This document shows, piece by piece, positions 3,684-38,742 of a DNA stretch of 38,825 nucleotides (position 1 is the first letter of the stretch; each line of letters starts with the position of its first letter). The DNA lies in UHGV virus genome UHGV-0212475, one strand, 5' to 3'. Under the pieces are notes generated by a model. The model was given only the letters and a program-made list of their open reading frames with translations. It was not told the origin of the DNA and made no database searches. The translations under genes and the position numbers were made by a program. Source of the DNA: a virus.

Positions 3684-4007
3684 TTGGAGGAATTAAAAAT
3701 GACAAACTACGAAAAAGAATTATTCACTAAAATCTTAACAGGTAATATTAAATATGAAATTGCAGGTAAAGAAAACGAAATGTTAGATGGATATATTACA
3801 AGAGATGAATTTAACGAATATAAAGGAATGCTAAACCTATTAAACGTAGCTAATAAAATTTTTAATGAAGCATACACAACTGGTTATTTCAAATCAAGTA
3901 AAACAGATACAGTTATTGAAGCTAAACACGTGAAATTTTTAGGTAATGAAGAACTTGAAATTATCAAAACAACAGCAGTTTTACATGCAACTGTAGCTTT
4001 TAAATAA
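3684..4007 (+). CDS. hypothetical protein (107 aa)
   Basis: TTGGAGGAATTAAAA RBS. Confidence 0.55.
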   Translation: MEELKMTNYEKELFTKILTGNIKYEIAGKENEMLDGYITRDEFNEYKGMLNLLNVANKIFNEAYTTGYFKSSKTDTVIEAKHVKFLGNEELEIIKTTAVLHATVAFK

Positions 4008-10005: not shown

Positions 10006-10233
10006 ATGACAAACTTAGAACTTATTGAGAAACTAGACAAAGACACGTACAACATGACACAGGACTTTTTGAAAAAAGGTGTAACACAACATGAAATTGA
10101 TTTATATGTTACAAAAGGTGTTACAATGTATTTAATGCTATTAAAAGAATATGGAGAAAATATTGACAAACACATTGAAAATGGTAAAAATACAATGGAA
10201 CGACTAGAAATTACAGGAGGTACTTTAAAATGA
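10006..10233 (+). CDS. hypothetical protein (75 aa); tandem paralog of 10230..10463
   Basis: GGAGAGGAAGAATAAAA RBS; shared motif KG(V/I)TQ(H/E)EID.YVT. Confidence 0.5.
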   Translation: MTNLELIEKLDKDTYNMTQDFLKKGVTQHEIDLYVTKGVTMYLMLLKEYGENIDKHIENGKNTMERLEITGGTLK

Positions 10234-17833: not shown

Positions 17834-17866
17834 AATAATAGTATAAACAAATTGGAGGAATTAATA
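17831..17866 (+). repeat. 36-bp direct repeat copy 1 (TAAAATAaTAGTATAAACAAATTGGAGGAATTAATA) immediately 5' of dam
   Basis: 35/36 identical to 18593-18628. Confidence 0.85.
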
Positions 17867-18595
17867 ATGAAATATGTAGGAAGTAAAAATAGACTTAGTA
17901 AAGAGTTAGCACCAATTATTCAATCATACATTAACGATAATACAGTGGCATATATTGAACCTTTTGTAGGTGGAGCAAATATGATTGATAAAATAAAACA
18001 TCATAATAAAATTGGAAGTGACCTACACAAAGAATTAATAGCTTTGCATAAGTTCAATAGAGATTATAGTGATACTTTACCAAATACAATCACAGAAGAA
18101 CAGTATTTAAACGTTAAAAATAACAAGGAGTCATATAGTGATTATATAGTTGGTTTAGTTGGTTTTTGTGCAACGTTTGGGGCTAAATACTTTGGTGGAT
18201 ATGCTAGAGGATATAAAGCTGACGGAGTCACACCACGTGACTTACCTAATGAAGCAATAAGAAACTTACAAAAACAAGCACCAAACATTCAAGGGATTAA
18301 GTTTGAATGTAAGTCATTTACTGATTATAACCCTTCTGATTATAAAAATTGCGTGTTCTACTTAGACCCACCATATAGAAAAACATTATCATATTCAACC
18401 GGTGGTTTTCCATATGAAGAATTTGATAAATGGGCTATAGAGTTAGCAAAAAACAACACTGTATTAATAAGTGAATATGAATTACCTGAAGATAAATTTG
18501 AATGCATCTGGAGTAAAGATGTTAAAGTTGGGATAAGTGGTCAAGGAGATATAAAAAATAAAAAAAGAGTTGAAAAATTATTTAAAGTACGTTAA
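17867..18595 (+). CDS. dam: DNA N6-adenine methyltransferase, D12/Dam family
   Basis: 242 aa from the ATG at 17867; N-terminal KYVGSKNRL, EPFVGGANM and DPPY motifs. Confidence 0.85.
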   Translation: MKYVGSKNRLSKELAPIIQSYINDNTVAYIEPFVGGANMIDKIKHHNKIGSDLHKELIALHKFNRDYSDTLPNTITEEQYLNVKNNKESYSDYIVGLVGFCATFGAKYFGGYARGYKADGVTPRDLPNEAIRNLQKQAPNIQGIKFECKSFTDYNPSDYKNCVFYLDPPYRKTLSYSTGGFPYEEFDKWAIELAKNNTVLISEYELPEDKFECIWSKDVKVGISGQGDIKNKKRVEKLFKVR

Positions 18596-23288: not shown

Positions 23289-25604
23289 TTATTTGAACAC
23301 TTTTGTTATTTGACAAGCTGGTACACTTGATATGAAGCTGTACTTATTTGCTTCAACTGAAATACGTATACCAACAAACTGGTCTTTTTTAAGCTCTAAT
23401 ACAAATGAACCTGTAGAAATCCATCTGAAACTTAGTGAGCTACCACCATTATTACCAATTGCATGTAAATACCCAGCACCACCATTTGTTATCAATCCCC
23501 CTATATCATCTGCAACAATCATTTCTGTATATACATATCGTGATTGTGTGCTTGTTCCATCTCCTTGATGTCGCAGTGTAACATCAAATTTTAGTATGCA
23601 ATCCTCTTTTACCTGCATTGCATCACGATTAGGATTAAACCATATTAATTTATTATGTTCAGCTTCTGATGTGTTGAAGTCTGTACCACTAAATGGTCCA
23701 ATTGGTAATAGGGTTCTTGTTGGTGATTTATCTAAACTTGCACCAGCACTATAAAAGGCGCTAAATTGCTTTTTATTATTTACTGTGATACCTTCTGCTT
23801 CTAACTTAGTGTTGTTAGTTAGAACACCACCTTCAATCTTTTGGATTGACATGTTACCACTACCAATTGTTGTATTGGTTTGTATGTTTTTAGTGTAGTC
23901 ATTTGTATCAATTGTCATTGAGCCATCGCTTAGTGTTGCGATGTCTTGATGTTCTACTGTTGTGCCTGTTGCTAGGTCATATGACTTTGATGTGTTTGTT
24001 AGTCTTGCGTATTGAATAAGTGTGTTTTCTTCACTTCTTAGTTTCTCTGTTCCGCCTGTTACTGTTACAAATGTGTCATTATCTTGGAATATTTTACCAT
24101 CACCAATTGTTGTAGTCCCAACACGTCTTGCAGTTCCACCAATGATAGCTTCTGTTTTATTCCATGTGTTGATAAATTCAGAACCATTGATAATTGAACC
24201 ATTGATGTTTACTGCGTTTAATGTTTCAATGTTAAGCACAGATTGGTCAATTGTTTGGTCTTGCCATTGACCACCTTTATACACCTTGTATGCACTAACC
24301 TTCTGTTCTGGCTCTGGTTCTGCTAATGGTGCTACACTTCTAAATAGTGTAGTACGTTGTACTGATTCTTGAACCCACCAGATATCATTTTCTTTTGGCA
24401 ACTCTGGTTCGTCTGGTTGTACAAAAACACGTGGTACACTATTAAATTTCGCTGTTGTTTCATTGTCAATTTTAATTTGAATATCTCGCAACTGTTCAGC
24501 AATTCCAGATTGTAAACGTACAAAATTAGATAGAACTGCTTCACAAGTGTTTGATTCATAATTAAATGTCAATTGTTGAACACGTGAGCTAAGATATAGT
24601 TTTTCGTTTTCGTCAACTAGTTCAACGGTATCACCTACCTGCAAAATGTCAGGAATGTTTGCAATGTCTACAATGTAATTCGTTACTGGTTGACTGTATT
24701 TTTTAAGATGTGAAACCACGTTATTTACTAGCGTTGTTTTGTTAGTTGTTTCATATGTCTTATATTGTACAAAATAATGTGAATTGTTGTTTTCACGTGA
24801 CCATTGCTTGATGTTCTGCGTATCACGTATAATACCATCACTCTTGTTTAATACAAAGCGTCCTTCTGGGTCCGTCCATGTAAAGCCTTTTAAATTTATA
24901 GGTGTATCCTTACCTTCTTCTGTTCCACCTGTTGCATAGATAGCATTCACAAGTTCGTAAATATCTTCTTCAACTACGATTGAGTGGATATCTCTATTCA
25001 CATACATTCTGTGAAAATCTGTTGTACCACGTTTTTTCTTGATGTCAATGTAGCGTTGTTTTAATTCGTTACCTACAAAGTCAAAACTAAATTCTAGTTC
25101 TGCATTATCAAATTGAGTTGCTACTGATTGAATGCGTTCTAATGCTGTTGCTTCACCTTCCCATTCCAGTTTTCGTGTAAGGTTTGGTATTTCATTTACA
25201 CCAATCTTAAAACCACTGTCAGAAGTGAATTTATTAATGTAATACGCAATGTTGTAAGCCTTGTCTGCTTTGTAGTCACTTACTGTTTCATTTAATAAGT
25301 CCAGTCCAGCATCTTCACATTCTAATGTTCTAACCTGTGTGAGTGGATTGTGTGTTGCTTTTAATATTGTCATCCACTCATATTTACCATTCAAGTCAAT
25401 ATACAGTACATAGTTACCAACTTTGAAAAAGTCTTTTGCTTGGTCTGTTGTTGATGGTGTGAAGCTGATTTCCATTGTCATTCTACGTGAAGATGTTTCA
25501 AGAGTAGAAACATCTTCCGCAGAAATTACTTTAAATGGTGTATCACCGTTTGTGCTTGTTACTGTTTTTAATTGAAAAGTTCTGTCTGTGATATAAAAGT
25601 CCAT
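23289..25604 (-). CDS. tail-associated lysin / baseplate hub (Tal) with extended C-terminal receptor-binding region
   Basis: 771 aa; N-terminus MDFYITDRTFQLK... resembles Tal/gp27-like (prophage-tail) proteins; GGAGGAAT RBS; immediately follows dit. Confidence 0.75.
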   Translation of the reverse strand: MDFYITDRTFQLKTVTSTNGDTPFKVISAEDVSTLETSSRRMTMEISFTPSTTDQAKDFFKVGNYVLYIDLNGKYEWMTILKATHNPLTQVRTLECEDAGLDLLNETVSDYKADKAYNIAYYINKFTSDSGFKIGVNEIPNLTRKLEWEGEATALERIQSVATQFDNAELEFSFDFVGNELKQRYIDIKKKRGTTDFHRMYVNRDIHSIVVEEDIYELVNAIYATGGTEEGKDTPINLKGFTWTDPEGRFVLNKSDGIIRDTQNIKQWSRENNNSHYFVQYKTYETTNKTTLVNNVVSHLKKYSQPVTNYIVDIANIPDILQVGDTVELVDENEKLYLSSRVQQLTFNYESNTCEAVLSNFVRLQSGIAEQLRDIQIKIDNETTAKFNSVPRVFVQPDEPELPKENDIWWVQESVQRTTLFRSVAPLAEPEPEQKVSAYKVYKGGQWQDQTIDQSVLNIETLNAVNINGSIINGSEFINTWNKTEAIIGGTARRVGTTTIGDGKIFQDNDTFVTVTGGTEKLRSEENTLIQYARLTNTSKSYDLATGTTVEHQDIATLSDGSMTIDTNDYTKNIQTNTTIGSGNMSIQKIEGGVLTNNTKLEAEGITVNNKKQFSAFYSAGASLDKSPTRTLLPIGPFSGTDFNTSEAEHNKLIWFNPNRDAMQVKEDCILKFDVTLRHQGDGTSTQSRYVYTEMIVADDIGGLITNGGAGYLHAIGNNGGSSLSFRWISTGSFVLELKKDQFVGIRISVEANKYSFISSVPACQITKVFK

Positions 25605-25615
25605 TATGATTCCTC

Positions 25616-27700
25616 CTATAAATATCTTTCGTTTACTGAAACACTAACTTCTGGTGTTAATGCAAAGTCAGAAAACACTGGTTTTATTATTGTTTCACCT
25701 ATTGGTAATACAAATTTTTCCCAGTCATTACCTAATGTGTTTAGTACTCCGTTTGGTGTTCCATTAACGTAAAGTGTACGTGTTGCAGTATCAATCGTCA
25801 CCAAGTCACCGTTACGGAATACGTTCTTCACATCTTGTAAATATGGTGTATCACGCCACCGCATTTTAGCATCAGTGATTCCCATTGTAATTGGTTTTAT
25901 ATCTTTCCACTGCATAAACCATGTTCCAAAGCTCATAATTTGTTGTTTGTTTTCAACATTATGCACATACTTATATTCATCTTTAACACGTACATTATCA
26001 TTTTTACTATCAATTTCTAAAATAGAACATAGCCGCCAAGTGATTTTATCGTCCCAGCGCTCAAAATTTATTTCGCGCCAACCATATTGAAATTTCTTTT
26101 TGTCAATATTGTATGTTTTTAGTATCTTACCTTGATATATTAACTCCATATAGATATTATCATTGTTCTTTGCTGAATCTCTAAATACAACACCCATTAC
26201 ATACGCGCCTGTAGTATCTACTAAGTTAATTTCCATACGACCCATAGCTTCTAAAAGCTTGTCAAAATAAAAAGTAAAACGTATGTTAGCTGTGAAATTA
26301 TGTGTTCTATCGTTGTCAGATGGTGGTGTTATTGGTGCGGTCATCGCTGGACCATGCCAGTACTTGTCTGCACCATCACCAAAAGCTGGAACAACTGCGT
26401 CTGGGTCTTTTGTCATATCTAATGAACCATCAAAAGTATTAGGCGTGTCTAAGTTACCACCATAGTTTGGATAACTAGAAACAAAGTCTTGATTAAGTTT
26501 AAATTCTGGTGGTAGTGTATTACCCCAAAAAGTCCACCATTTTACAGTTTCTAAACGCGTTTTCTCAATATAATCTTGTTCTGATGGATAGCCAAACTGC
26601 AACACATTGCCTTTACCATCAACTAAACCACAGAAGCCATTGTCACTGTTCATGCTGAAATGGTATGTTGGGTATGACTTATATGTTCCATTATTTTGAA
26701 TTGTTATATTTTCGTTATATTGTGCTTCTGAAGGTACATATATACCTGTTTGCGTTGGGTTTAGGTACATGTATGGACGTGACCATGCAACACTAAATTC
26801 ACTTCCAAATGCGCAGTACTGAAAATTGATACCTTTTACATCTGGTGATTCTAATCTGACATCTAAAAAGAAATGGGTCCATTCTGTAGTACCTTTAGGT
26901 ATATCCTTAGTATATGTCTTTAGTTTTCTTAGTGGTGCATCGCCCCATTCCTGAATGACTATGCGACCCGCCAATTCTTGATTGTCATCATCAACATATG
27001 ACTTAAATGTGATTCCAGCAACAACCCTATCACCAACTTTTAAACTTGGGTTCATTCGTCTAGTGAAGTTATCTATTTGAAACCATGCTTGGTCTTTTGT
27101 ACTAAGTTTTTCGTAGTTAAAAGGTATTCCTGTTGTAAAATCAGCACCAACGACTGTACTGTTTAATCTTTTTTCTGGTAATACTTTAACCCAAGGTTTC
27201 AAATATTGGTCAATCTTTTTATACTCACTATCGTATATTAAATTAATATTACCGCTTTTAACATTTGTAAACCCTGCTGGGTATAGTGCATGTGCTAATC
27301 CGTCAGGTACATCAAATGTTAATGTTAACGGTGTATACTTAGTGTCTGTTGCGTCATACTCTTCTGTTCCTGTAAAGATAGCGCTAAAGTATCTATCTGG
27401 GAATAGGTCTAAAATTAACTCCTTTGGTTCGTCTGTGTTGATGATTTTAACTAGTTCATCTTTTGTTTCTGAAACACTCATACCACTATTGTCTGTGATA
27501 ATGAAACCATCTATACTAAGTGTATATTCACCTAATCTAGTATTTCTAAAATGTTTTCCGTCTGTATTACCAACGGTGAAAAAATCATTGTCTTTTGATA
27601 AAAACGGTATGTTCACTTTAGCAATTTGAAATAGGTGACTTGTTTCTTTACCGTCAAATGTAAAACTTCTTAAAAAATCATAATTTTCAGCCATTCTCAT
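25616..27700 (-). CDS. distal tail protein (Dit), long/evolved form
   Basis: 694 aa; N-terminal siphovirus tail-component pattern (F.FDGK.S..F.I.KVN.P...G..F..L..L.I.GFI); AAAGGAGA RBS. Confidence 0.75.
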   Translation of the reverse strand: MRMAENYDFLRSFTFDGKETSHLFQIAKVNIPFLSKDNDFFTVGNTDGKHFRNTRLGEYTLSIDGFIITDNSGMSVSETKDELVKIINTDEPKELILDLFPDRYFSAIFTGTEEYDATDTKYTPLTLTFDVPDGLAHALYPAGFTNVKSGNINLIYDSEYKKIDQYLKPWVKVLPEKRLNSTVVGADFTTGIPFNYEKLSTKDQAWFQIDNFTRRMNPSLKVGDRVVAGITFKSYVDDDNQELAGRIVIQEWGDAPLRKLKTYTKDIPKGTTEWTHFFLDVRLESPDVKGINFQYCAFGSEFSVAWSRPYMYLNPTQTGIYVPSEAQYNENITIQNNGTYKSYPTYHFSMNSDNGFCGLVDGKGNVLQFGYPSEQDYIEKTRLETVKWWTFWGNTLPPEFKLNQDFVSSYPNYGGNLDTPNTFDGSLDMTKDPDAVVPAFGDGADKYWHGPAMTAPITPPSDNDRTHNFTANIRFTFYFDKLLEAMGRMEINLVDTTGAYVMGVVFRDSAKNNDNIYMELIYQGKILKTYNIDKKKFQYGWREINFERWDDKITWRLCSILEIDSKNDNVRVKDEYKYVHNVENKQQIMSFGTWFMQWKDIKPITMGITDAKMRWRDTPYLQDVKNVFRNGDLVTIDTATRTLYVNGTPNGVLNTLGNDWEKFVLPIGETIIKPVFSDFALTPEVSVSVNERYL

Positions 27701-27773: not shown

Positions 27774-30700
27774 TTAAACAATACCTAAGTCACGTGAACG
27801 ATTACGTTCTGCGGTCTTATTTAGGTTGTTAAGTTCCTTGTTAAGCTTCTTACCGTCCAATAACACATCTGTATTTTTGGCTAAGATAGCTTGCAACAAT
27901 TCATTCTGTTGTTGCATTAAAGCAATGACTGTTCCTAAGTCTGTTGATGTTCCTTGCTTAGGTGTGTTGCGTTCTTCCTTCACTCCTAACGCTTGTTTAG
28001 CTTGGTTAAGCAATGCCATTGCTCTTCCTCGTTTAGCTGGTTCAGTTGGAATGATAAATTCTGGATAACCATTTTCAGCAAGTTTTGCAATTTGTGGACC
28101 TTTTGCAATACCACCATTATAATAACCTCTAATGCGTCCACCAGATGGACCCCAACCAGATTTTCCATAAGGTAAGTCTTGACGCCAGTTAGTGTTGTTA
28201 AAGAATGCTAGTAATTGGTCATAACCTGAATAAATATTGCCATGTCCTTTTACCTTGTACGCGTCAAACGTTTGTGGGATATATTGAAGCAAGCCGCGTG
28301 CTGGGTTTCCGCTTGCGGTGTTGACGTCCCATACTGCTGAACTTTGAACAATCTTTTCATTACCACCTGATTCACGTTGAATCTGTGCTAAGATACCATT
28401 GATTTCACTTTCACTAGCATTTGCACCCATTTCTTTGGAAGCTTTGATGACCAATGCGCGCCAGTTGCCATCTACAGGACCGCTAACACGTTCTTCCTCT
28501 TCTTTCTTTTTGAATAATGCTTTCACTTTTTCGGCAAATGCAGTTGTAGCTTTTGTTCCTAAACCTTTTGCCATGTCTAATGCTACGTGTGTTAGACCTC
28601 CTAAGTCCATTGCACCCATAATTGCATTTCGTGCTAAGTCTAATGGATTGCCTACCCAGTCCATAATATCGCCAATGGTTTGTTTTACCTTGTTGATACC
28701 ATTACCCACAAATGACTTGGTATTGTCCCACATGTTGCGAACTCCGTCCATGAAACCAGTTCCTTTTTTATAGAATGGAATGCGTCCTTTTTGACCTAAT
28801 ACCATTGATGTTTCTTTGGCATTTAGTACTTGTGTGCCAGCTGGTGCATTCATCATAACGTTTCTACCTTTTGGAATCATTGCTTGACCGTTTGGTGCTA
28901 TTACCATTTCAGCTCCACCACCGTCATTTACTACCATAGGTCCGCCTATGTGACCATCAGTACCGCTTGCATATTGTGGTACGTCCCATTTAGGAATTTG
29001 AGGTGCGCCAAACTTTTCTAACACCCAGTTAGCACCACCAATGATACCATTTACTGGACCACCAATTGCGCTCAATACCTTATTGAAAATACCTTTAAAT
29101 GCACCAGTAACATGCTTAGCACCACCACTAATTGCACCGCCTAAACGTTCTGGCAAACCAGTAAACCAGCGTACAATAGTGTCAATACCACCACTGAATG
29201 TGTTTTTGATTCCCTTCCAAAGGGATGATATAGTTCCTGAAACATTACTTCTAAGCTCACGTGCAATGCGTGTTACATTACTAAACCAACCAGAAACAGC
29301 ACCATTTACATTTGATATACCACCTTTAAAGAAGTTTTTGACAGCGTCCCACATGCCAGAAATTGCACCTTTAAATGTTCCGCCAAAACCTTTTACACCT
29401 TTTAGAATTTTACCAAAGAATGAAATATTAATCCAGTTCCAAATAACTTGGATAGCACCCCAAACTAATTGTTTGATACCGTCCCAAATTAATTTCCAAT
29501 CACCGTTGAAAATACCTTTAAAGATTTTTGTTGCCCCTTCAATTACATTAAAGAAACCTTCAATCAAACCAACTACTGAATCAACAAAACTCATTACAAT
29601 ATCAATTGCAATTTTAAAAATTGGTGTTAATAATTCTAACCATTTTTTAATTGCATTCATTATTGCTTGTCCGTTCTCGTTCCACCACTTAGTCACCTTA
29701 TCAAAAACAGCACCCAACCTATCCCCAAGTTCTTGAAGCTTAGGCATGATGTAAGGTATTAAGTCATCTGCAATATACTTAATCACAACACCCATAATGT
29801 CGCCCGCAACCTTGAAAGATGTACCAAGATATTGCGTTAACTTTTCAAGAATTGGCTGTGCAAACTCCCACATTTTTTCCAATGCTGGTTGGACCATTGG
29901 TAGAATTTTCTTGGTAAAGTTTGTGATACCGTCTGCCATTCCACCAAACATTGGGTTCAATGAGATACCAATTTCATTTCCTAATGCTTTTAATGCTGAT
30001 TTAAAGGCGTCCATTCCAGTTGTGTTGCTCATTGCGTTGTTCATTGCGTCTTGTGCGCCTTCTACGTTATCATATGCCATTGATGTATTGTTTAATGACT
30101 TGATAACAGCCAATGAATTATCTTCACCTAATGCGGACCAGATTGTCCCAGCTTTGTTCAGTGCGTCATATTGGTTTTCCATACCTCCAAAGTCGCTAAT
30201 CATTGAACGAATGACGTCCGCTTGTGTTGCTCCGCCTTGTTGCCATTGTCTAAACAATTCTTGTGTTTGACCGCTGAACATACCTATGTTGTCCTCGAAA
30301 CGACCATCTGTTAAAGAAATAGCCATTTCTTTAATTAAGTCATTGACTTTGTCTAAGTTGTATGCTCCATTATCTAAACCGCTTTGTAACATGTCAAATG
30401 TCTGTTCTGCTGTGAAACCAGCTTGACCAAAAATCTGTGAATACTCCGCCATGTTATCGCCTAGTTCGTCTGTTTGGTCAAGTCCTAACTGTGCGCCACG
30501 TGCCATCAAGTCCCAAGCGTGGTCTGCGTCAATACCAAAGTTAGTCATCATTTTACCAATACCACGAATAGTCTCGTTTACGTCTGCCCCTGTATTTTTA
30601 GAAAATGCAATTGCATTACGTGTCATGCGTTGTAGCATATCATCGTCCATGCCGTTGGCACCCATTACATTTTGTACACGTATCATTGCGTCTGCCACTT

Positions 30701-31661
30701 CGTTGATGTCGTCTGAATAACCTTCAGCAACTAATTGGTTAGCTAATCTTGAAACAGCTTGGGCGCTCTCTGCGTCCCAGTCAAAGGCTCCTTTGAATTT
30801 ATCAACCGCTTCAATACCAGCATTAATATTTTCAACAACTTCTGAAACAGCGTCACTAATCATATCAATTGCTTTAGTAGCTACCGCCATACCAACACCA
30901 GCAACCAAACCTTGTAGCCCTTTACTTGCTAGTCCTAAACCTTCACTAGTTTCACCGCTTGACTTACCTAATTCTTGCATTCCTTTAGATACTGAATCTA
31001 GTTCACCATCTGTATTATCAAGTGACTTTTTAAACTCTTGTAATTCTTTTTCAGCCTTGCTAACTTCTGTTGAATTTTTACCAAACTTTTGCGTTAACTG
31101 TTGGATTGCGTTTTCTTGACCAGCAATAGCTTGTTTAGTTAGGTCTGATTGACGTTTTAAACCAGCTTGTTTTGTTTCCAAAGCACCCATTTTGTCGCCT
31201 GCTTTATCCATTGCATTGGCTTGTGTTTGGAAGTCTTTTGCGTTATCTTTAATTTCTTGACCTAGCTTATCTAAACCATTCTCAAACTTGATAACGTCAG
31301 CTGTTGTTTTTTGCAAATCTTTTTGCATTCCGTTATATTTAGCACTAGCATTGTTTAATTGGGTTGTTAGTGTTTTAACTTGGTTTGATTCTTCGCCATA
31401 TTTTGCAATAGCGTCTTGACGTTTCTTACTTAGTAATTCAACTTTCTTACCTTGTAAGTCCGTAGCTGTTGCCAAGTCTTTTTCTTTTTGTTGCAATTTC
31501 TCAATACTTTGTCCTGATTTATCAAACACTGATAAATTGGCTTTCATTGCTGATTCTTGCTGTTTAATTGACTTGTTTAATTTGTCTAATGTATTAATGG
31601 TCTGGTCTACGCCATCAACACCAATACCAAACTTCATATTGCCAATAACTTTGTCTGCCAT
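27774..31661 (-). CDS. tail tape measure protein with a C-terminal lytic transglycosylase (SLT) domain
   Basis: 1295 aa; long coiled-coil N-terminus; Gly/Phe-rich K..F.G repeats; ILAQIQRESGGN...GLLQYIPQTF SLT signature; AAGGAGAG RBS. Confidence 0.9.
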   Translation of the reverse strand: MADKVIGNMKFGIGVDGVDQTINTLDKLNKSIKQQESAMKANLSVFDKSGQSIEKLQQKEKDLATATDLQGKKVELLSKKRQDAIAKYGEESNQVKTLTTQLNNASAKYNGMQKDLQKTTADVIKFENGLDKLGQEIKDNAKDFQTQANAMDKAGDKMGALETKQAGLKRQSDLTKQAIAGQENAIQQLTQKFGKNSTEVSKAEKELQEFKKSLDNTDGELDSVSKGMQELGKSSGETSEGLGLASKGLQGLVAGVGMAVATKAIDMISDAVSEVVENINAGIEAVDKFKGAFDWDAESAQAVSRLANQLVAEGYSDDINEVADAMIRVQNVMGANGMDDDMLQRMTRNAIAFSKNTGADVNETIRGIGKMMTNFGIDADHAWDLMARGAQLGLDQTDELGDNMAEYSQIFGQAGFTAEQTFDMLQSGLDNGAYNLDKVNDLIKEMAISLTDGRFEDNIGMFSGQTQELFRQWQQGGATQADVIRSMISDFGGMENQYDALNKAGTIWSALGEDNSLAVIKSLNNTSMAYDNVEGAQDAMNNAMSNTTGMDAFKSALKALGNEIGISLNPMFGGMADGITNFTKKILPMVQPALEKMWEFAQPILEKLTQYLGTSFKVAGDIMGVVIKYIADDLIPYIMPKLQELGDRLGAVFDKVTKWWNENGQAIMNAIKKWLELLTPIFKIAIDIVMSFVDSVVGLIEGFFNVIEGATKIFKGIFNGDWKLIWDGIKQLVWGAIQVIWNWINISFFGKILKGVKGFGGTFKGAISGMWDAVKNFFKGGISNVNGAVSGWFSNVTRIARELRSNVSGTISSLWKGIKNTFSGGIDTIVRWFTGLPERLGGAISGGAKHVTGAFKGIFNKVLSAIGGPVNGIIGGANWVLEKFGAPQIPKWDVPQYASGTDGHIGGPMVVNDGGGAEMVIAPNGQAMIPKGRNVMMNAPAGTQVLNAKETSMVLGQKGRIPFYKKGTGFMDGVRNMWDNTKSFVGNGINKVKQTIGDIMDWVGNPLDLARNAIMGAMDLGGLTHVALDMAKGLGTKATTAFAEKVKALFKKKEEEERVSGPVDGNWRALVIKASKEMGANASESEINGILAQIQRESGGNEKIVQSSAVWDVNTASGNPARGLLQYIPQTFDAYKVKGHGNIYSGYDQLLAFFNNTNWRQDLPYGKSGWGPSGGRIRGYYNGGIAKGPQIAKLAENGYPEFIIPTEPAKRGRAMALLNQAKQALGVKEERNTPKQGTSTDLGTVIALMQQQNELLQAILAKNTDVLLDGKKLNKELNNLNKTAERNRSRDLGIV

Positions 31662-31899: not shown

Positions 31900-32232
31900 C
31901 TAGGCTTCCTTTGAATCATCAACCCCCATGATAGTTCCTAAAATGTTTTCTAAAACGTCTACTAAGTCATCAGATTCAATTGAATTTTCAATTGCTTCAA
32001 ATGTAACTTCTGGGTGTTCAAAGATTTCAACTAATAATACAATCATTGAATCTAATAATTCTAATTGGTCAACTTCTACACCATTAGCCATGTCTTTTTG
32101 TACGTTTTCCATATCACGGTAATACTTCATAATACTACGCATTGTCTTAACTTTGACGCCTTTTTTTGTAATTTTGCGGTTTTTTCCGTCAATAATTAAG
32201 TTAATACTGAATGATTTTGTTTGTTTTGCCAT
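31900..32232 (-). CDS. tail assembly chaperone (gpG-like), acidic
   Basis: 110 aa; GGAGGAAT RBS; positioned directly upstream of tmp. Confidence 0.55.
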   Translation of the reverse strand: MAKQTKSFSINLIIDGKNRKITKKGVKVKTMRSIMKYYRDMENVQKDMANGVEVDQLELLDSMIVLLVEIFEHPEVTFEAIENSIESDDLVDVLENILGTIMGVDDSKEA

Positions 32233-32267
32233 GTTTATTCCTCCAAATAATTTTATTTACTATAGTT

Positions 32268-32302
32268 ATTATAGCATTAAAAACAGTGATTGTGGGTGTT
32301 GG
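32268..32302 (-). promoter_or_regulatory. late promoter L1: CCAACACCCACAA-N13-TGcTATAAT (minus strand)
   Basis: motif = revcomp of 32290-32302; -10 = revcomp of 32268-32276. Confidence 0.6.
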
Positions 32303-32313
32303 TGAAACCAGTT

Positions 32314-32342
32314 AAATAAAAAAGAGAGCCGTTAAGCTCTCT
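32314..32342 (-). terminator. intrinsic terminator 3' of the capsid gene (AGAGAGC-cgttaa-GCTCTCT + U-tract on the minus strand)
   Basis: stem 7 bp; A-run 32314-32322 on the plus strand = U-run on the minus transcript. Confidence 0.65.
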
Positions 32343-32405
32343 TAAGTCAATTCAATTGTTACACTTGTGTCTGCTGGCGTCACCTGTCCGACCACAGGTG
32401 GGGTG

Positions 32406-33623
32406 CTAGGGTGTAGTAATGTTGTTTATGAATTTTCCAGCCGCTGGGTCTACTACTTTAGCATCAAAACGCATGAAGATTGCTAAGTATTGACCATAAA
32501 TTTCATGGTCAATCCAACGTGCAGTAGTTTCGGCACGATTGAAGAATGTTGCAAATGCCACTGGGTCACCTAAGAATGCTACTTTAGCACCTTTTTCACC
32601 TAACATTTCATCTTTCAACACTGTTACTGGAACACCAAACAATGATTTTCCAGACTGTGCTGTAATATCAGTTTGTAATAAGTAGCGTCCTTCACCGTCT
32701 TTCATGATGTCAACTGCGTTGTAGAATGATTGAGTAACAATCAATTCCAATCCGTAAGCTGGGTCGAAACCAGTGTTAATCTGTGTTTTGATGTCATCTA
32801 ATGATGTAGCGGCTACTGCTGAAGCTGTTTTTAACAAGTTAGCTAAAACAAAGTTAGTTGTGTTTAAACCTTGGCGTTGTACTGAATCAGCAATAATTCC
32901 AGCTAAGTCGTCCGCTGAATCATCTAATGATTCTTGTGATACAACAATTTGACCACGATAAGTTGATACATTGTAAGGAACTTCTTCAAATTCAGGTTTT
33001 GCCAATGCTGGGTTTTTTGCCAACTCTTCAACTGTTACCATTTTTGCAGTAGTTGATTTCAAGATTGGGTATTTACCGCCAGATGTTTTAACTTTGATAC
33101 TGTTCACTTTATTACGTAAGTCAACAACTGTGTCTGGTAATTTACGTGCTTTAGTGATAATATCTTCTGGGATAATTGCTTCTGCGTCTGTTGATTTAAC
33201 TTGTCCGTCATCAACCGCACGTGTTTCATTAAATGATTTTACGCTAGTTGATTTTGAAGTTACGTAGTCTAAAAACGCACGTTGTTCTGTTACTGGCTCT
33301 GCTAACTCTTTACCATTGATTTTTACTTTCTCCATGTCAATATCTTCTCCTTTTGCGTTCTCAATTGAACGTTCTTCTTTTTTTGGTTCTTCCTTTGGTT
33401 CGTCTTTGACTTCGTCTTTAGGTTCGTCCTTTGGTTCTTCTTTAGGCTCTTCCTTTTTGACTTCGTCTTTAGGTGCTTCTGCTTTATCTTCTGCACGTTC
33501 TTCGTTTTCAGCTGGTGTTTCATCTTTCAAAGCTTCTAACTGTTCAATAACTTTTTTAGCTTCGTCAAGTTTACCTTCTGCCAACAAAGATTTTGCTTGC
33601 GCTTCTAACTCTGCCTTGTTCAT
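32406..33623 (-). CDS. major capsid protein, HK97 fold, with acidic Lys/Glu/Pro-rich N-terminal delta/scaffold region
   Basis: 405 aa; the central and C-terminal region (about residues 150-405) shows an HK97-family capsid pattern by eye; AAAGGAG RBS; follows the prohead protease. Confidence 0.75.
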   Translation of the reverse strand: MNKAELEAQAKSLLAEGKLDEAKKVIEQLEALKDETPAENEERAEDKAEAPKDEVKKEEPKEEPKDEPKDEVKDEPKEEPKKEERSIENAKGEDIDMEKVKINGKELAEPVTEQRAFLDYVTSKSTSVKSFNETRAVDDGQVKSTDAEAIIPEDIITKARKLPDTVVDLRNKVNSIKVKTSGGKYPILKSTTAKMVTVEELAKNPALAKPEFEEVPYNVSTYRGQIVVSQESLDDSADDLAGIIADSVQRQGLNTTNFVLANLLKTASAVAATSLDDIKTQINTGFDPAYGLELIVTQSFYNAVDIMKDGEGRYLLQTDITAQSGKSLFGVPVTVLKDEMLGEKGAKVAFLGDPVAFATFFNRAETTARWIDHEIYGQYLAIFMRFDAKVVDPAAGKFINNITTP

Positions 33624-33699: not shown

Positions 33700-34254
33700 T
33701 TACAAGGTCGCTAGTCGTAACTGTAATTCTAGTTTTCGTTTTTCCATTTCGTTAACTTCCATGTTTTCAAGTGAGCGTTTAGCCACTGCAACATCTGTGT
33801 CATCATATGCTGGAATTGAAACCAGTGAGATTTCAGCTAGTGTATTGATTTTTTTGATAGTTCTAACTGGTTGACCATCTCTCCGTTCCCATTCATCTTC
33901 TGCAACCGTAAACCCAAACGAACACTGACTAAGGTCACCACGTTTTACAAGTTCCATCACATCATTTCCAAGTGTTGTGTTTGGTAACTCACAACGGAAT
34001 TTCAACCCCACTTCATCAACTGATAATTGAAGTGTACCGCTCTTTGTTCTTCCAAGTAAGTTGCCTGAATCATGATTTAAGAATAATTTTACATCGTCCA
34101 TATTAACGCCGTCCAATGCTCTTGCGTCAATAGTTTCAATAAAACCACCTAAGTCTTTCGATGGTTTATTGAATTTTAATGCGTAACCTTCAACAACATT
34201 GTTGTCATTCACGAACTCATGTAGTTGTCTAATTTCCAGTTCCGTCTGTTTCAT
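33700..34254 (-). CDS. prohead protease (HK97/U35-S78 family)
   Basis: 184 aa from the ATG at 34254 (AGAGGAAG RBS); overlaps the portal 3' end by 26 nt. Confidence 0.8.
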   Translation of the reverse strand: MKQTELEIRQLHEFVNDNNVVEGYALKFNKPSKDLGGFIETIDARALDGVNMDDVKLFLNHDSGNLLGRTKSGTLQLSVDEVGLKFRCELPNTTLGNDVMELVKRGDLSQCSFGFTVAEDEWERRDGQPVRTIKKINTLAEISLVSIPAYDDTDVAVAKRSLENMEVNEMEKRKLELQLRLATL

Positions 34255-35407
34255 TCTTGTACACTTCCTCTTCTTTATTCTCTGTTTTAACTGTTGTTTC
34301 ACCATCTTCTAAAGGTTCATACCCATAATATGCACGAACTTCATTTTCTTTGATAGTTGATAATAACTCTTTACTTGCTTTTCCACTAAACAATTGTTTG
34401 CGTCTGTCATCTAATGTATCATTCATTAGACTTGAAAAGTCCATTTCCAAAACATTACCTGTTTTAATTGCTATTTCGTCACAGATTGCAGATTCATATT
34501 GACTAATTGTTGATGCAATATAGATGTCATTTTGTCCGCTATCAGTTGAGTTGACTAATTCCATACCAAAACGGTTTAATGGAATACCTAAAACTTTTGC
34601 AATTTGTTGCGTACTGAATTTGTTTGATTGAATCAATTTCAAAATATCAGTATTCATTTTGTACTCCGTGAAGTCTGTTGCTTCATCTAAAACGATAACA
34701 CCATTACTGTTTGTGCTTCCACCGTTAGCTCTTTCAAAATCTTCACGAATTTTCTTTTTGGTTGCGTTGTCTACATAACCTTTTTTGAGTTTTAAGATTC
34801 CGCCGCCGAAAACACCATTAGCAAAGAACTTGGATAAAATCTTATTACCGTTTGTTTGCATTCCTATTTCATCACGTAAAGATAGTAAAGGACTGCGACC
34901 AATGAAACCGTCAACTACTGAAATTCTAAAATGTAAGATGTCACGTGGTTCACATCGTAACATGTGGTTTCCATAGTCTAACGTTACATCATAGCGCCAT
35001 TCACCTGTTGTCATATCTTGAATGAGGTTCACTTGGTCTGCTGTTACAAACTCTAATGACTTAATTTGTGAGTTATAATCATTCTCTTTTTCTCTATGAA
35101 TGATTGCATATGAATTACCATAAAGAATCAGCTGTGCAACTGTTGCATACATGAATGTATAATGACTTTGTTTCTCATGTGGTCGCTTGTTAATTAGTTG
35201 TAAAAAATCTTTGTCTGCGTGTTCGTCTGGAACTTTTCTGAATAGTGATTTACCAATGTCACCACCAATGATATTAACACCTGTGAACACGTCTGAATTT
35301 TGTAATGCTCGTTCACCTGTCAAATATCCTAAGTTATCCATTCCGCTTTCAATATAATCAATAAAATTCTTCTCTGCTTTAGTCTGTGGTGCAATAAATA
35401 CGCCCAT
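34229..35407 (-). CDS. portal protein (HK97-family)
   Basis: 392 aa; position between terL and the protease; portal-like sequence. Confidence 0.85.
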   Translation of the reverse strand: MGVFIAPQTKAEKNFIDYIESGMDNLGYLTGERALQNSDVFTGVNIIGGDIGKSLFRKVPDEHADKDFLQLINKRPHEKQSHYTFMYATVAQLILYGNSYAIIHREKENDYNSQIKSLEFVTADQVNLIQDMTTGEWRYDVTLDYGNHMLRCEPRDILHFRISVVDGFIGRSPLLSLRDEIGMQTNGNKILSKFFANGVFGGGILKLKKGYVDNATKKKIREDFERANGGSTNSNGVIVLDEATDFTEYKMNTDILKLIQSNKFSTQQIAKVLGIPLNRFGMELVNSTDSGQNDIYIASTISQYESAICDEIAIKTGNVLEMDFSSLMNDTLDDRRKQLFSGKASKELLSTIKENEVRAYYGYEPLEDGETTVKTENKEEEVYKNETDGTGN

Positions 35408-36002: not shown

Positions 36003-37730
36003 TTAAACACCAAAGCCGAATGTGCCTTGCTCTAACATGTTTTCAAAACTTGAATATCCAAAGTCATAATACATTGCTTCACTCATTGCATTTATTAAAG
36101 CATCCAATGAATCAATCTTGTTGCGATTCATTTTCTTTTCAATTGCTATGTTGTCAGCAAACTCTTTCATATACGCATTATATATCGCTGTATTGAGTAG
36201 TGGGTTGTTTTGATGTATTATATCACCTTTGTATATTGCGTCCCTTAGATACTTTGTGGGGGCGTTTAAATACTGTATGCGTTGCGGTACTTCAATTAGA
36301 TACCGTTCGCCGAAAACTTCCGCTAATCGCAAGACTGATTGTGACGCTTGGTGACCATCATAGAAAATACCTTGTAGGTCCAAGTCATATGTTTCAACAA
36401 AATCAACTATCCAGTCGCACATATCCGCATGGTCAATCAATCCTGATTCTAACTTACTAATTGAAACGATTCCTTCATTTTCATATTGGCGGTATGGTAT
36501 TTTATCTTCCTGAATTTTCTTTTCAATACCTCCAATTGATGAAATGAAACCATGTGTATTTACAAGTAACTTCTCTTCTTCTGCAATTGGTATAATCCAG
36601 CTAACCGCCGTTATATCTTTTGTGCGTGATAAGTCCATTCCAATAAATACAGGACGTTTTCTAATATCATATTCTTTTGTTGCTTTGATTGCGTCCCAGC
36701 TTTCTTTATCCATGAAACTATCTTGTGAAGCTTGTACCCAGAAGTTCATTTCTTTAGTTAGCCAACCACTCATGTCACCTTTTGCTTTATACTCTGCCAA
36801 TGAATTAACCTTATGTTCGTACATGGTTTCATACAATTGTGTATTCTCAAACAGTGGGTTTGATTTTATCCAATTGGCTTGGTCGTCAACTTCGCTGATA
36901 CTATCCATTTCCCAACATAAAGCAAGGTATGCGTCTGCTTCAACCTCTTCATTTAATAGCTTAGTTATAAATGGATATTCTATGCTGTGCATTGGTCCAT
37001 TAAGATTTTTAGTTGTTGTACTAATAATCAAAATTAAACCTTGTGGTTGTTGTGATTGTGAACTTTCTAATACCTCAATTAATGCTGTGCTTTTTGCTTC
37101 TCCGTATTCATCTAATACACCACAAAGTACGTCTAGTCCGTCTAAGCTGTCTGCGTCACTTGCTAAAGGTTTAACAGTTGATTCATCTTCTAAGTGTTCA
37201 ATGTCATATTTGTTCACCTTAGTAATTTTACGCACACTATCACTTGAATTTCTCAATGCTTTCAGCTGTGATTTCAACATACGGAATACAATTCCAGCTT
37301 GTTCTTTAGTATTTGCGCCAGCTACAATCTGTCTTGAAGCTTTTGGGTATTGCCCTAAGATGAACTCATACAATGAAATACCAGCAACCAGAATTGATTT
37401 ACCGTTTTTACGTGCTAAACTTATATATACTTTTCTGAATCTACGCATTTTATTACTCTTTTTGCGCCACCCATAAATTAAAGCCACAATAAACTTCTGG
37501 AACTTAGCTAGTTTATTTGTCTTTTTACTCTTTGGGTCTGGTAACATTTCAATAAATGCCACTGGTTCATATGTTTCTTTTGGGTCGTAATAGTATGGAT
37601 AATCTGGGTCTTTTGATTTTTCTAAGTCTTTCTCATGACGTCTAATTGCTTGTTTTATTTTATTACCTATTGGTATTTGATTATCTTTTATATAATTGAT
37701 ATAATCAGCTACAAAATCTATATTATTCAT
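36003..37730 (-). CDS. terL: terminase large subunit
   Basis: 575 aa; N-terminal ATPase region ARKNGKS (Walker A-like); Terminase_1-like overall pattern; AAGGAGGT RBS. Confidence 0.9.
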   Translation of the reverse strand: MNNIDFVADYINYIKDNQIPIGNKIKQAIRRHEKDLEKSKDPDYPYYYDPKETYEPVAFIEMLPDPKSKKTNKLAKFQKFIVALIYGWRKKSNKMRRFRKVYISLARKNGKSILVAGISLYEFILGQYPKASRQIVAGANTKEQAGIVFRMLKSQLKALRNSSDSVRKITKVNKYDIEHLEDESTVKPLASDADSLDGLDVLCGVLDEYGEAKSTALIEVLESSQSQQPQGLILIISTTTKNLNGPMHSIEYPFITKLLNEEVEADAYLALCWEMDSISEVDDQANWIKSNPLFENTQLYETMYEHKVNSLAEYKAKGDMSGWLTKEMNFWVQASQDSFMDKESWDAIKATKEYDIRKRPVFIGMDLSRTKDITAVSWIIPIAEEEKLLVNTHGFISSIGGIEKKIQEDKIPYRQYENEGIVSISKLESGLIDHADMCDWIVDFVETYDLDLQGIFYDGHQASQSVLRLAEVFGERYLIEVPQRIQYLNAPTKYLRDAIYKGDIIHQNNPLLNTAIYNAYMKEFADNIAIEKKMNRNKIDSLDALINAMSEAMYYDFGYSSFENMLEQGTFGFGV

Positions 37731-37930: not shown

Positions 37931-38404
37931 TTAACCTTGTGCGCGCATTTTAAGCAATTGACCTAATGGGTCTTTGCTTTCGTCCTCTACTTCTTTTGGT
38001 GCTACCAGTTTCAATCTTGAATTGATAGTTAAACCTAAGTCATTCGTTGCGCTTTTTAGTTCCTTAGAATAAGAGTTCATAGCCGTTACTTTAGGATTTA
38101 GCTTTCCATCTTCTGTCAAAGGTCCTTCATATGCAACTTGTTCAGCCATTTCTGAATATAGGTAACTATAATTGCAATACCTAACCATTGCTTGTTGGTC
38201 CAGTTCTGAAATTGGTAGGTCACCAATGAAATGCGAAATTCGTTCCCACTCGTGGTAGGCTTGTTTCAACAAACCAGCTGGATAATATGAAAAGTCTAAC
38301 TTCTCAAAGTTCATTAGCTTTTCTTCTTCCTTTTGTCGTTTGTATTGTTGCTCTTGTGTAAGGTTCCCAACTTGGGCATTTAATAATTTTCTTGGTCTAC
38401 CCAT
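37931..38404 (-). CDS. terS: terminase small subunit (P27-like)
   Basis: 157 aa; AAGGTGGTGA RBS; basic N-terminus MGRPRKLLN...; position directly before terL. Confidence 0.75.
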   Translation of the reverse strand: MGRPRKLLNAQVGNLTQEQQYKRQKEEEKLMNFEKLDFSYYPAGLLKQAYHEWERISHFIGDLPISELDQQAMVRYCNYSYLYSEMAEQVAYEGPLTEDGKLNPKVTAMNSYSKELKSATNDLGLTINSRLKLVAPKEVEDESKDPLGQLLKMRAQG

Positions 38405-38406
38405 TT

Positions 38407-38742
38407 TTATTCACCACCTTTTGCCCAACTCTTCCTATTTCTGTTTTGGTCTGATACTGATTTCCATTCTAGGTTACTTGCTTTGTTGTTGTGTCTGTTG
38501 CGGTCTTTGTGGTCTACTGTGTGTCCGTCTTGTTTACCTTTTACAAATGCTTCCGCAACTAAGATGTGAACTCGTTTACCAGTTCTTTGACCGTTCTTAT
38601 ATAGGTCTACATTCAAATATCCATTATCCTTTGCATATGGCTTTAGTGGGTTTTTAGTTGTTCCGTCATTGTATGCGACATTACCATATGATGAAATTAA
38701 GTATCCATCATATCCATTTATTTTGGACCACTGTTCACTCAT
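38407..38742 (-). CDS. NUMOD4 + HNH_3 homing-type endonuclease
   Basis: 111 aa; WSKINGYDGYLISSYGNV (NUMOD4-like) and VDHKDRNRHNNKASNLEW (HNH); GAGGTGGT RBS. Confidence 0.75.
   Translation of the reverse strand: MSEQWSKINGYDGYLISSYGNVAYNDGTTKNPLKPYAKDNGYLNVDLYKNGQRTGKRVHILVAEAFVKGKQDGHTVDHKDRNRHNNKASNLEWKSVSDQNRNRKSWAKGGE

What the first reader, a model, noticed from the sequence alone, without database searches (positions are those of the whole stretch)
32233..32405. No major tail protein, head-tail connector, head-closure or tail-terminator genes between capsid and tail chaperone
The minus late operon reads HNH-TerS-TerL-portal-protease-MCP and then, after only 173 bp carrying a terminator and a late promoter, goes straight into gpG/T-TMP-Dit-Tal-lysis. 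In every characterised siphovirus with this HK97-like layout, 4-6 genes (adaptor, head closure, tail completion, tail terminator, major tail/tube protein, about 2.5-3 kb) sit exactly at this junction, and a tube protein is indispensable for a TMP/Dit/Tal-type tail. None of the other ORFs in the window (all six frames inspected) resembles a tube protein, and the late arm is about 3 kb shorter than usual. Possible explanations: (a) a deletion derivative or defective element that relies on a co-resident helper for tube and connector proteins, a reverse satellite-like dependency; (b) the missing genes lie outside the window; (c) an assembly or chimera artefact; (d) a genuinely non-canonical tube or connector solution among the unannotated small ORFs.
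Basis: partly seen in the sequence, partly recalled or inferred. Interest (0 to 1): 0.78.

Follow-up and report, generated by a model that had tools for sequence, protein, structure and literature searches.

The report
Six tail genes lost between repeats
This Enterococcus phage genome really lacks its tail-tube and head-tail connector genes, but the 2.4-kb gap lies in register between two copies of a short repeat that every relative carries and that breaks short-read assemblies, so it is most likely an assembly dropout or a dead-end deletion, not a new kind of tail.

Summary
The capsid gene (32406-33623, minus strand) is followed after 173 bp by the tail chaperone gene, and no tube, terminator, completion, head-closure or adaptor gene exists anywhere in the window.

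The window is a complete Efquatrovirus-type genome, 95-96% identical and colinear with Enterococcus phages MSF2 and G01. Its two ends abut in G01, so nothing lies outside the window.

Every relative examined keeps a six-gene, 2,378-bp block at this spot: 132 phage records, 9 IMG/VR contigs and 10 long metagenome contigs.

In all of them the block is bounded by two copies of a ~70-nt cassette (CCC_TAG plus a 21-codon +1-frame ORF), one at the end of the capsid gene and one at the end of the tube gene. The window keeps a single copy, joined in register.

Public short-read (Logan) assemblies break at this cassette. They leave the six genes as an orphan contig of exactly 2,378 bp.

- **Most likely cause:** the block was dropped during assembly or finishing (about 0.6).
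- **Alternative:** a genuine repeat-associated deletion giving a non-viable, helper-dependent genome (about 0.3).
- **Ruled out:** no non-canonical tube.

By-product: the cassette looks like an unannotated +1 frameshift tag shared by capsid and tube proteins. It may be half of a split fibronectin-III domain.

The parts
32428..33623 (-). Part of the major capsid protein gene that derives from the capsid gene of the parent (codons 1-398/399, ending ...GKFI).
   Evidence: PHROG phrog_10, E 1e-55. It is 92-94% identical to the capsid genes of G01, MSF2 and Ef6.4. Positions 1-22 of the 53-nt junction query match only capsid genes.
32412..32427 (-). Last 16 nt before CCC_TAG (AAACAACATTACTACA, encoding NNITT). 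These derive from the 3' end of the major TAIL protein gene. The breakpoint 32428/32427 lies at their upstream edge.
   Evidence: The same 14-16 nt precede CCCTAG in the tube genes of G01, L008, L043 and L045. They never do so in any of more than 30 capsid genes. Junction query positions 23-53 match tube genes at 90-93.5%.
32406..32411 (-). CCC_TAG: the zero-frame stop of the hybrid capsid ORF and the putative +1 'shifty stop' frameshift site.
   Evidence: 46 of 50 cassette copies in relatives have CCC_T(AG). The proven +1 sites of Listeria phages PSA, A118 and A500 are CCC_UGA and ACA_CCC (PMC5009743).
32342..32407 (-). A +1-frame ORF of 21 codons plus TAA (STPPVVGQVTPADTSVTIELT*). It is the only remaining copy of the cassette, which relatives carry twice (capsid gene end and tube gene end). 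The copy here is of the tube-gene type.
   Evidence: Translation; single copy in the window. Across 50 copies (32 distinct), all keep exactly 21 open codons followed by a stop in this frame, and both other frames carry stops in 32 of 32. A serine codon switches between AGT and TCA. Tube-type SNPs (GACGCC, GGTCGG) are shown.
32381..32400 (-). 7-bp hairpin CACCUGU-N6-ACAGGUG, starting 8 nt after CCC. It is a possible frameshift stimulator.
   Evidence: It forms in the centroid structure. The stem is invariant and only the loop varies among copies. Overall folding energy is not exceptional (z = +0.7), so the support is weak.
32322..32343 (-). Intrinsic terminator that natively follows the tube gene.
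   Evidence: Terminator scan. The same element follows the tube gene in G01, L004 and L045.
32233..32321 (-). Native intergenic region between the tube gene and the chaperone gene, with the extended -10 box TGCTATAAT (32276-32268) and the ribosome-binding site of the chaperone gene.
   Evidence: A continuous 96-97% alignment to MSF2 and G01 runs from the tape measure gene through this region into the cassette.
31900..32232 (-). Tail assembly chaperone (gpG-like), intact.
   Evidence: Pfam Phage_TAC_19, E 4.9e-19. It is 100% identical to the MSF2 protein and the exact protein is listed in 1,277 blocks of the public collection.

Best explanation
The window is the complete genome of an ordinary Efquatrovirus-type Enterococcus siphophage. 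One 2,378-bp block of six genes has been removed from it. The six genes are a 66-aa virion protein, the head-tail connector, the head-closure, tail-completion and terminator-like proteins, and the major tail (tube) protein.

In every relative this block is bounded by two direct copies of a ~70-nt cassette: CCC_TAG followed by a conserved 21-codon +1-frame ORF. One copy ends the capsid gene and the other ends the tube gene. In the window the capsid gene is joined in register to the tube-gene copy. The 173-bp 'gap' is therefore simply the native tube-to-chaperone intergenic region.

The most likely cause is assembly or finishing. In a short-read assembly graph the block is a loop hanging on the repeat. 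It is emitted as a separate ~2.4-kb contig, and the main contig closes across the repeat without it. The real phage would then have a normal tube and connector.

Shown: the absence, the repeat, the in-register junction, and the orphan contigs in other data sets. Inferred: that the same thing happened to this sequence.
For: (1) Nearest relatives MSF2 and G01 are 95-96% identical on both flanks, but their match spans 11,076 bp against 8,697 bp of query, in two pieces. The extra DNA is the six annotated genes.

(2) The two flank alignments overlap by 80 nt in the window (32349-32428). The block is therefore bounded by a direct repeat with a period of 2,378 bp.

(3) The repeat is present at both positions in every relative examined.

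(4) No relative shows the junction:
- 132 phage records, none covering at least 80% of a junction-spanning query
- 9 IMG/VR loci
- 10 contigs of 35-42 kb from ENA, JGI and Logan
- a gapped pattern specific for the capsid-to-tube-cassette arrangement hits only the window

(5) The six-gene block occurs as a stand-alone Logan contig of exactly 2,378 bp, seen in 3 samples, with both ends inside the cassette copies. At least 10 protein clusters of the 66-aa gene have a longest contig of 2,372-2,383 bp. Short-read assemblers therefore demonstrably break here.

(6) The rest of the genome is intact and colinear with G01.

(7) The missing proteins are real virion components in the relative vB_EfaS-271, by mass spectrometry (PMC7503890). 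A genome without them cannot make infectious particles, which argues against it being the dominant genotype of a propagated phage.
Against: No reads are available, so nothing shows directly that the block existed in the sample.

The junction is not inside the part of the repeat shared in known relatives. Tube-type sequence starts 16 nt upstream of CCCTAG, where capsid and tube genes are unrelated. A de Bruijn assembler cannot invent such k-mers. The artefact reading therefore needs the parent's capsid gene to have carried a longer repeat already, converted from the tube copy. That arrangement is not seen in more than 30 relatives.

The exact capsid, tape measure and Tal proteins of this strain are not in the public collection, so the source could not be traced.
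Confidence: 0.6

Rival explanations
1. The deletion is genuine. Recombination, single-strand annealing or copy-choice between the two cassette copies removed the block in real DNA molecules. The result is a defective genome that can replicate and build heads and baseplates but no tail tube or connector. At 94% of unit length it could still be packaged. It would persist only by complementation from co-infecting full-length phage, like a defective interfering genome.
For: A direct repeat of 70 nt or more flanks the block in all relatives. The junction is exactly in register and in frame (16 nt to CCCTAG on both sides), as expected from a pairing-based process. The whole retained cassette is of one parental type, as in single-strand annealing products. 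The hybrid k-mers must exist in some real molecules unless the parent had a longer repeat. The cassette alleles reassort between the two positions in different phages, so the two copies do recombine in nature.
Against: Six essential virion genes are lost (one search gives mass-spectrometry evidence in a relative), so such a genome cannot be the majority in a plaque-purified stock. The junction was found in no other record or contig. The crossover lies 16 nt outside the shared homology, which simple homologous recombination or slippage does not predict.
Confidence: 0.3
2. The missing genes lie outside the window, elsewhere in the same replicon.
For: None found.
Against: The window's first and last bases map to adjacent positions of G01 (39484 and 39481 of the reverse complement), and the whole genome is colinear. 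38,825 + 2,378 = 41,203 bp, which matches the 41,189 bp of G01. tblastn of the six proteins against the window finds nothing.
Confidence: 0.01
3. The phage has a non-canonical tube and connector encoded by unannotated small ORFs, or borrows those of a resident prophage.
For: None. ORF 1764-2129 hits a PHROG labelled 'tape measure', but it is a 121-aa early-region protein on the other strand that relatives also have.
Against: The window has no extra coding capacity compared with G01 apart from a DNA methyltransferase insert. The chaperone, tape measure protein and Dit are 96-100% identical to those of phages that use the standard Phage_TTP_1 tube. The Enterococcus prophage phiEf11 uses an unrelated tube family, PF06199.
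Confidence: 0.02

Closest known systems
Enterococcus phages MSF2 (MK982307) and G01 (OR797478), Efquatrovirus-type siphophages
   Same: 95-96% nucleotide identity across the late operon, the same gene order, and whole-genome colinearity.
   Different: They carry the 2,378-bp six-gene block and two cassette copies. The window has neither the block nor the capsid-type cassette copy.
Repeat-bounded loop dropout in short-read assemblies, and classical deletions between direct repeats in phage genomes (general knowledge)
   Same: The missing segment is exactly one repeat period, one repeat copy is retained, and the junction is in register. Orphan contigs of the looped-out segment exist in other data sets.
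   Different: The switch point lies 16 nt outside the portion of the repeat that known relatives share.
Programmed +1 frameshifting in the capsid (cps) and tail (tsh) genes of Listeria phages PSA, A118 and A500 (Zimmer 2003; reviewed in PMC5009743)
   Same: A CCC proline codon sits directly before a stop codon at the 3' end of both the capsid and the tube gene, and a conserved ORF is open in the +1 frame.
   Different: Here the stop is UAG, the extension is only 21 aa and is the same peptide on both proteins, and no protein evidence exists. The records seen do not annotate it.
Enterococcus phage phiEf11 capsid protein ORF10, proposed -1 frameshift giving a 21-aa extension (PMC5221750)
   Same: A 21-aa C-terminal extension (IEAPKVESVIPTTDGASIVLS) homologous to the in-frame C-terminus of its own tube protein (SPSVESVTPTFDGASTELS). 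It is followed by a separate gene that starts like the Efquatrovirus 66-aa protein.
   Different: A different phage lineage, a different recoding mode (-1 at A_AAA_AAA, or none) and a different tube family.
Split or strand-complemented beta-sandwich domains: anastellin (an Fn3 fragment lacking strands A and B), donor-strand complementation in pili, SpyTag/SpyCatcher (from memory)
   Same: The 66-aa protein models as Fn3 strands C, C', E, F and G, with the E strand unpaired. Anastellin is among its Foldseek matches. The 21-aa tag has the length and pattern of strands A-B.
   Different: Complementation has not been shown. Sequence support for Fn3 is below Pfam's threshold, and profile comparison aligns only strands E-F.

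Membership tests
Efquatrovirus-type Enterococcus siphophage | High nucleotide identity and colinear genome with classified members | tested here: met
   95.5% identity to MSF2, which is classified in Efquatrovirus, over 97% of a 9-kb query. Colinear with G01 over the whole genome.
Efquatrovirus-type Enterococcus siphophage | Complete siphovirus morphogenesis module (adaptor, head closure, tail completion, terminator, Phage_TTP_1 tube) | tested here: not met
   All six genes are absent. They are present in every relative.
Repeat-bounded deletion or assembly collapse | Direct repeats flank the missing segment in intact relatives, and one copy remains | tested here: met
   80-nt overlap of the flank alignments, period 2,378 bp. 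Two copies in all relatives. One copy in the window.
Repeat-bounded deletion or assembly collapse | Junction lies within the shared repeat | tested here: inconclusive
   The junction is in register but 16 nt upstream of the shared part. This needs a longer repeat in the unknown parent.
Repeat-bounded deletion or assembly collapse | Read-level evidence (coverage, pairs, orphan contig in the same data set) | not testable with these tools
   No reads are available, and the strain's proteins are not on record. Orphan 2,378-bp contigs exist in other samples.
Phage satellite or helper-dependent element (PICI, P4-like) | Lacks most structural genes, carries its own integration, replication and helper-hijacking genes, and is much smaller than the helper | tested here: not met
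   The window keeps terminase, portal, protease, capsid, chaperone, tape measure, Dit, Tal, lysis and replication genes of a full phage. It has 94% of full length.
+1 programmed frameshift at CCC_stop (PSA-type) | CCC codon immediately 5' of the zero-frame stop | tested here: met
   CCC_TAG at 32406-32411. 46 of 50 copies in relatives have it. Precedent CCC_UGA.
+1 programmed frameshift at CCC_stop (PSA-type) | +1 ORF under protein-level selection | tested here: met
   21 open codons plus a stop in 32 of 32 distinct cassettes, stops in both other frames, a conserved peptide, and a serine AGT/TCA codon switch.
+1 programmed frameshift at CCC_stop (PSA-type) | Extended protein detected | not testable with these tools
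   The mass-spectrometry study of vB_EfaS-271 lists only annotated ORFs. Two capsid bands were seen only in phiEf11, which uses a -1 site.
Fibronectin type III domain (Pfam PF00041) for the 66-aa protein | Score above the Pfam gathering threshold | tested here: not met
   13.9 bits against a cut-off of 25, E 0.063, matching profile positions 36-81 of 84 only. The fold-level resemblance is supportive.

The most novel reading that the evidence does not exclude
The 66 nt directly after the capsid stop codon (32342-32407) are translated by +1 frameshifting at CCC_UAG. The same 21-aa tag is added to a fraction of both capsid and tail-tube subunits. The tag supplies strands A-B of a fibronectin-III domain whose remaining strands (C-G) are made as a separate 66-aa virion protein, encoded right after the capsid gene. 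This would be a natural split-domain, tag-and-catcher way of decorating head and tail with one protein.

The design recurs with different recoding solutions in phiEf11, Staphylococcus Triavirus and Kayvirus. The two tag cassettes are the repeat that bounds the gap. This reading concerns the repeat, not the gap itself.
Probability: 0.4. Interest if true: 0.65.

Novelty: not a real feature. Interest (0 to 1): 0.22.

Why it matters
Taken at face value, the finding would mean a siphovirus with a tape measure, Dit and Tal but no tube. The evidence shows instead an ordinary phage genome missing exactly one repeat period.

- **The record:** it should not be used as evidence for tube-less tails, 'reverse satellites' or a reduced core genome. 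It should be flagged for re-assembly.
- **Genome curation:** the paired cassette at the capsid and tube gene ends is a systematic assembly hazard for this widely used group of therapeutic Enterococcus phages. Orphan 2.38-kb contigs are common in public assemblies.
- **Biology:** the cassette appears to be an unannotated +1 recoding signal present twice in more than 130 genomes. It may be part of a split decoration domain, which deserves an experimental test.

Tried and rejected
- **Junction searches.** The exact 26-mer and a degenerate 22-mer were searched in IMG/VR, metagenome and genome collections. Only chance hits appeared, with no similarity beyond the pattern.
- **Exact-protein look-ups.** The hybrid capsid protein, the tape measure protein and Tal were looked up to trace the source sample. 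None is on record.
- **Gapped capsid-to-tube-cassette pattern in IMG/VR.** No hit.
- **RNA folding of the region after CCC_UAG.** A 7-bp hairpin forms, but the energy is no better than in shuffles (z +0.7), so a stimulatory structure is not established.
- **Pfam scan of the tag plus 66-aa chimera.** The fn3 match did not extend into the tag.
- **phmmer of the chimera against PDB sequences.** Nothing meaningful.
- **hhalign of the chimeras against canonical Fn3 domains.** Only strands E-F aligned, at 44% probability.
- **Deliberate edit at gene boundaries.** Considered and rejected, because the breakpoints are not at CDS boundaries and are in register with the repeat.
- **Out-of-register CATTAC microhomology.** Considered and rejected, because that join would give a product 9 nt shorter than observed.

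Full report
**1.

- HNH endonuclease 38407-38742
- TerS 37931-38404
- TerL 36003-37730
- two small ORFs
- portal 34229-35407
- protease 33700-34305
- major capsid protein 32406-33623
- after 173 bp, a tail assembly chaperone at 31900-32232 (Pfam Phage_TAC_19, E 5e-19)
- a 68-aa ORF
- tape measure protein 27774-31661
- Dit 25616-27700
- Tal 23289-25604
- two holins and an endolysin

The 173 bp contain a terminator at 32343-32322 and an extended -10 box, TGCTATAAT, at 32276-32268.

**2. What the window is**

Megablast places it among Enterococcus siphophages. MSF2 (Efquatrovirus) matches at 95.5% and G01 at 96%. In both, the 8.7 kb of matched query corresponds to about 11.1 kb of record, in two pieces.

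The extra DNA carries six annotated genes between the capsid and chaperone genes:
- a 66-aa protein
- a head-tail connector (Phage_connect_1)
- a 110-aa protein (Phage_HCP)
- a 135-aa protein (HK97-gp10-like)
- a 121-aa protein
- a 188-aa Phage_TTP_1 major tail protein

tblastn of these six proteins against the window gives only noise, whereas the two neighbouring chaperone ORFs match at 98-100%.

The whole window is colinear with the 41,189-bp G01 genome, and its two ends map to adjacent G01 positions. The window is therefore a whole genome and nothing lies outside it. 38,825 + 2,378 = 41,203 bp, the normal size for this group.

The only window-specific insert of note encodes a DNA methyltransferase at 17852-18595.

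**3. Anatomy of the gap**

The left and right flank alignments to MSF2 and G01 overlap by 80 nt in the window, at 32349-32428. In the relatives the block is therefore bounded by a direct repeat, with a period of 2,378 bp.

Alignment shows what the repeat is. Both the capsid gene and the tube gene end with CCC_TAG followed by 63 conserved nucleotides and a stop.

The window retains one copy. All its diagnostic SNPs, and the terminator behind it, are of the tube-gene type. Tube-type sequence begins 16 nt upstream of CCCTAG. The hybrid capsid protein ends ...GKFI-NNITTP instead of ...GKFITLTPAP.

A 53-nt query across the join confirms this. Positions 1-22 match only capsid genes and positions 23-53 match tube genes. 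The breakpoint is at 32428/32427.

The join is exactly in register, with 16 nt to CCCTAG on both sides, and in frame. But it lies outside the part of the repeat that capsid and tube genes share in any of more than 30 relatives.

I cannot explain this overshoot with simple recombination, slippage or graph collapse. The simplest assumption is that the unknown parent had a longer repeat, made by gene conversion. Conversion does move the repeat boundary in some clades: L009-L012 share CAATTGCCCTAG at both sites.

**4. Is the junction seen anywhere else?**

No.
- 132 phage records match a junction-spanning query, always as two separate places. None spans it.
- Nine IMG/VR relatives all keep the six genes.
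- Ten long ENA, JGI and Logan contigs all keep the six genes.
- Junction k-mers occur in the large collections only as chance hits.
- A gapped pattern specific for 'capsid gene followed by tube-type cassette' matches only the window.

**5. Why I favour an artefact**

A protein search that returned the 66-aa gene showed that many Logan contigs carrying it are 2,372-2,383 bp long.

One of them (L041) is 2,378 bp, was seen in three samples, and holds exactly the six genes. It starts inside the capsid-end cassette and ends inside the tube-end cassette.

Short-read graph assemblers therefore do cut this genome at the cassette pair. They emit the six-gene block as an orphan contig of exactly the size missing here. 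Taking the large contig, or closing it across the repeat, reproduces the window's architecture.

The six proteins include virion components detected by mass spectrometry in the relative vB_EfaS-271: both 'major tail proteins' and two head-tail joining proteins (PMC7503890). A genome without them cannot be the dominant genotype of a propagated phage.

The caveat is the hybrid 16 nt described in section 3. No reads or source sample could be traced.

My estimates are about 0.6 for an assembly or finishing artefact and about 0.3 for a genuine repeat-associated deletion. A genuine deletion would give a packagable genome of 94% length that is defective and could survive only on co-infecting full-length phage.

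**6. What the repeat is (by-product)**

In 50 copies (32 distinct sequences) the +1 frame after CCC_T is open for exactly 21 codons and then stops. Both other frames contain stops in all 32.

The peptide is conserved: (S/A)(T/A/N)PPV(V/L)GQVT(P/T)(A/T)(D/E)(T/K)S(V/A)(T/S)IEL(S/T). Two allelic forms reassort between the capsid and tube positions, and a serine switches between AGT and TCA codons.

CCC followed by a stop is the proven +1 shift site of the tail genes of Listeria phages PSA, A118 and A500. ACA_CCC is the site in the PSA capsid gene (PMC5009743). A 7-bp hairpin follows 8 nt downstream, but it is not statistically exceptional. None of the records I inspected annotates this extension.

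**7. A possible split domain**

The 66-aa gene after the capsid gene encodes a virion protein. Several results bear on its fold:
- It matches Pfam fn3 only over profile positions 36-81, below threshold.
- AlphaFold models it with pLDDT 88 as strands C, C', F and G. The invariant PVTITGL segment, which is the Fn3 E strand, has no partner.
- Foldseek finds phage Fn3-like domains (the Bxb1 tail tip at probability 1.0), fibronectin modules and anastellin. From memory, anastellin is an Fn3 fragment lacking strands A and B.

The 21-aa tag has the length and pattern of strands A-B. The same pairing of tag and fragment recurs in three other lineages:
- **phiEf11.** The capsid gains IEAPKVESVIPTTDGASIVLS by the -1 shift proposed in PMC5221750, where two capsid bands were seen. 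The tube protein ends in frame with SPSVESVTPTFDGASTELS. The next gene begins with the fragment.
- **Staphylococcus Triavirus.** The tube gene ends TTA_CCC_AGC_TAA, with ANPQNVEVAVNSKSATVSAE in the +1 frame. The fragment gene follows.
- **Kayvirus G1.** ORF080 consists of the fragment, a Big_2 domain and the tag, and is followed by ORF189, another fragment.

I infer strand complementation between tag and fragment. This is not shown. The profile comparison was inconclusive and the chimera could not be modelled.

**8. Verdict**

The absence is real in the sequence, but its cause is mundane. It is one repeat period lost, most likely in silico. It is not a new tail architecture or satellite-like strategy.

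Noticed in passing
window 32342-32411 (minus strand); both cassette copies in L001, L003-L012, L032-L035 and L043-L052: CCC_TAG followed by a conserved 21-codon +1 ORF (STPPVVGQVTPADTSVTIELT*) lies at the 3' end of both the capsid and the tube genes across the genus. It looks like an unannotated +1 programmed frameshift of the Listeria PSA type, adding the same tag to both proteins.
   Followed up: partly
L001 8461-8661 (the 66-aa gene, deleted in the window); L036 1501-2031 and L038 2560-2720 (phiEf11); L040 1040-1650 (Staphylococcus phage phiSa2wa_st5); L039 374-1128 (Staphylococcus phage G1): In four unrelated Firmicute phage lineages, a ~20-aa C-terminal tag on the capsid, tube or a decoration protein is paired with a separate gene that starts at Fn3 strand C. 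The tag is reached by a +1 shift, a -1 shift or in frame. This suggests a split Fn3 domain completed in trans.
   Followed up: partly
L041 (Logan SRR24741439 contig, 2,378 bp) and the protein clusters: The six-gene connector and tube block is frequently assembled as an orphan contig of 2,372-2,383 bp whose ends lie inside the two cassette copies. This is a systematic assembly hazard for this phage group.
   Followed up: yes
window 32412-32428: The junction is in register and in frame but lies 16 nt upstream of the repeat shared by known relatives. No relative's capsid gene carries this AAACAACATTACTA stretch. Simple recombination or graph collapse does not explain it.
   Followed up: partly
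L009 about 10179-10200 and L048 about 3818-3840 (tube gene ends): Two metagenomic relatives replace CCC_TAG_TAC_A with CCC_AGC_TAA_T. That gives the same TTACCCAGCTAA 12-mer found at the tube gene end of Staphylococcus Triavirus. It may be an alternative +1 site (CCC_A) or evidence of horizontal exchange of the recoding signal.
   Followed up: no
L032-L035 (phiSHEF2, SANTOR1, SSMH02, EfaCPT1), cassette copies: Two cassette alleles (…TPADTSV… and …TTTETSA…) occur in all combinations at the capsid and tube positions. The cassette stays almost identical between phages whose capsid genes are only ~70% identical. This points to concerted evolution or gene conversion between the two sites.
   Followed up: partly
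window 17852-18595 (+): A 247-aa ORF (TTG start) matching DNA methyltransferase PHROG 56 sits in a ~730-bp stretch that is absent from G01 at the corresponding position.
   Followed up: partly
window 1764-2129 (+): A 121-aa early-region ORF matches phrog_10739, which is labelled 'tail length tape measure protein' (E 5e-43). Given its size, strand and context, this is almost certainly a mislabelled family and not a structural gene.
   Followed up: no
window 1 and 38825: The window's ends map to adjacent positions about 1.7 kb into G01, between a homing endonuclease gene and the HNH/TerS genes. They may be the physical cos ends of the genome.
   Followed up: no
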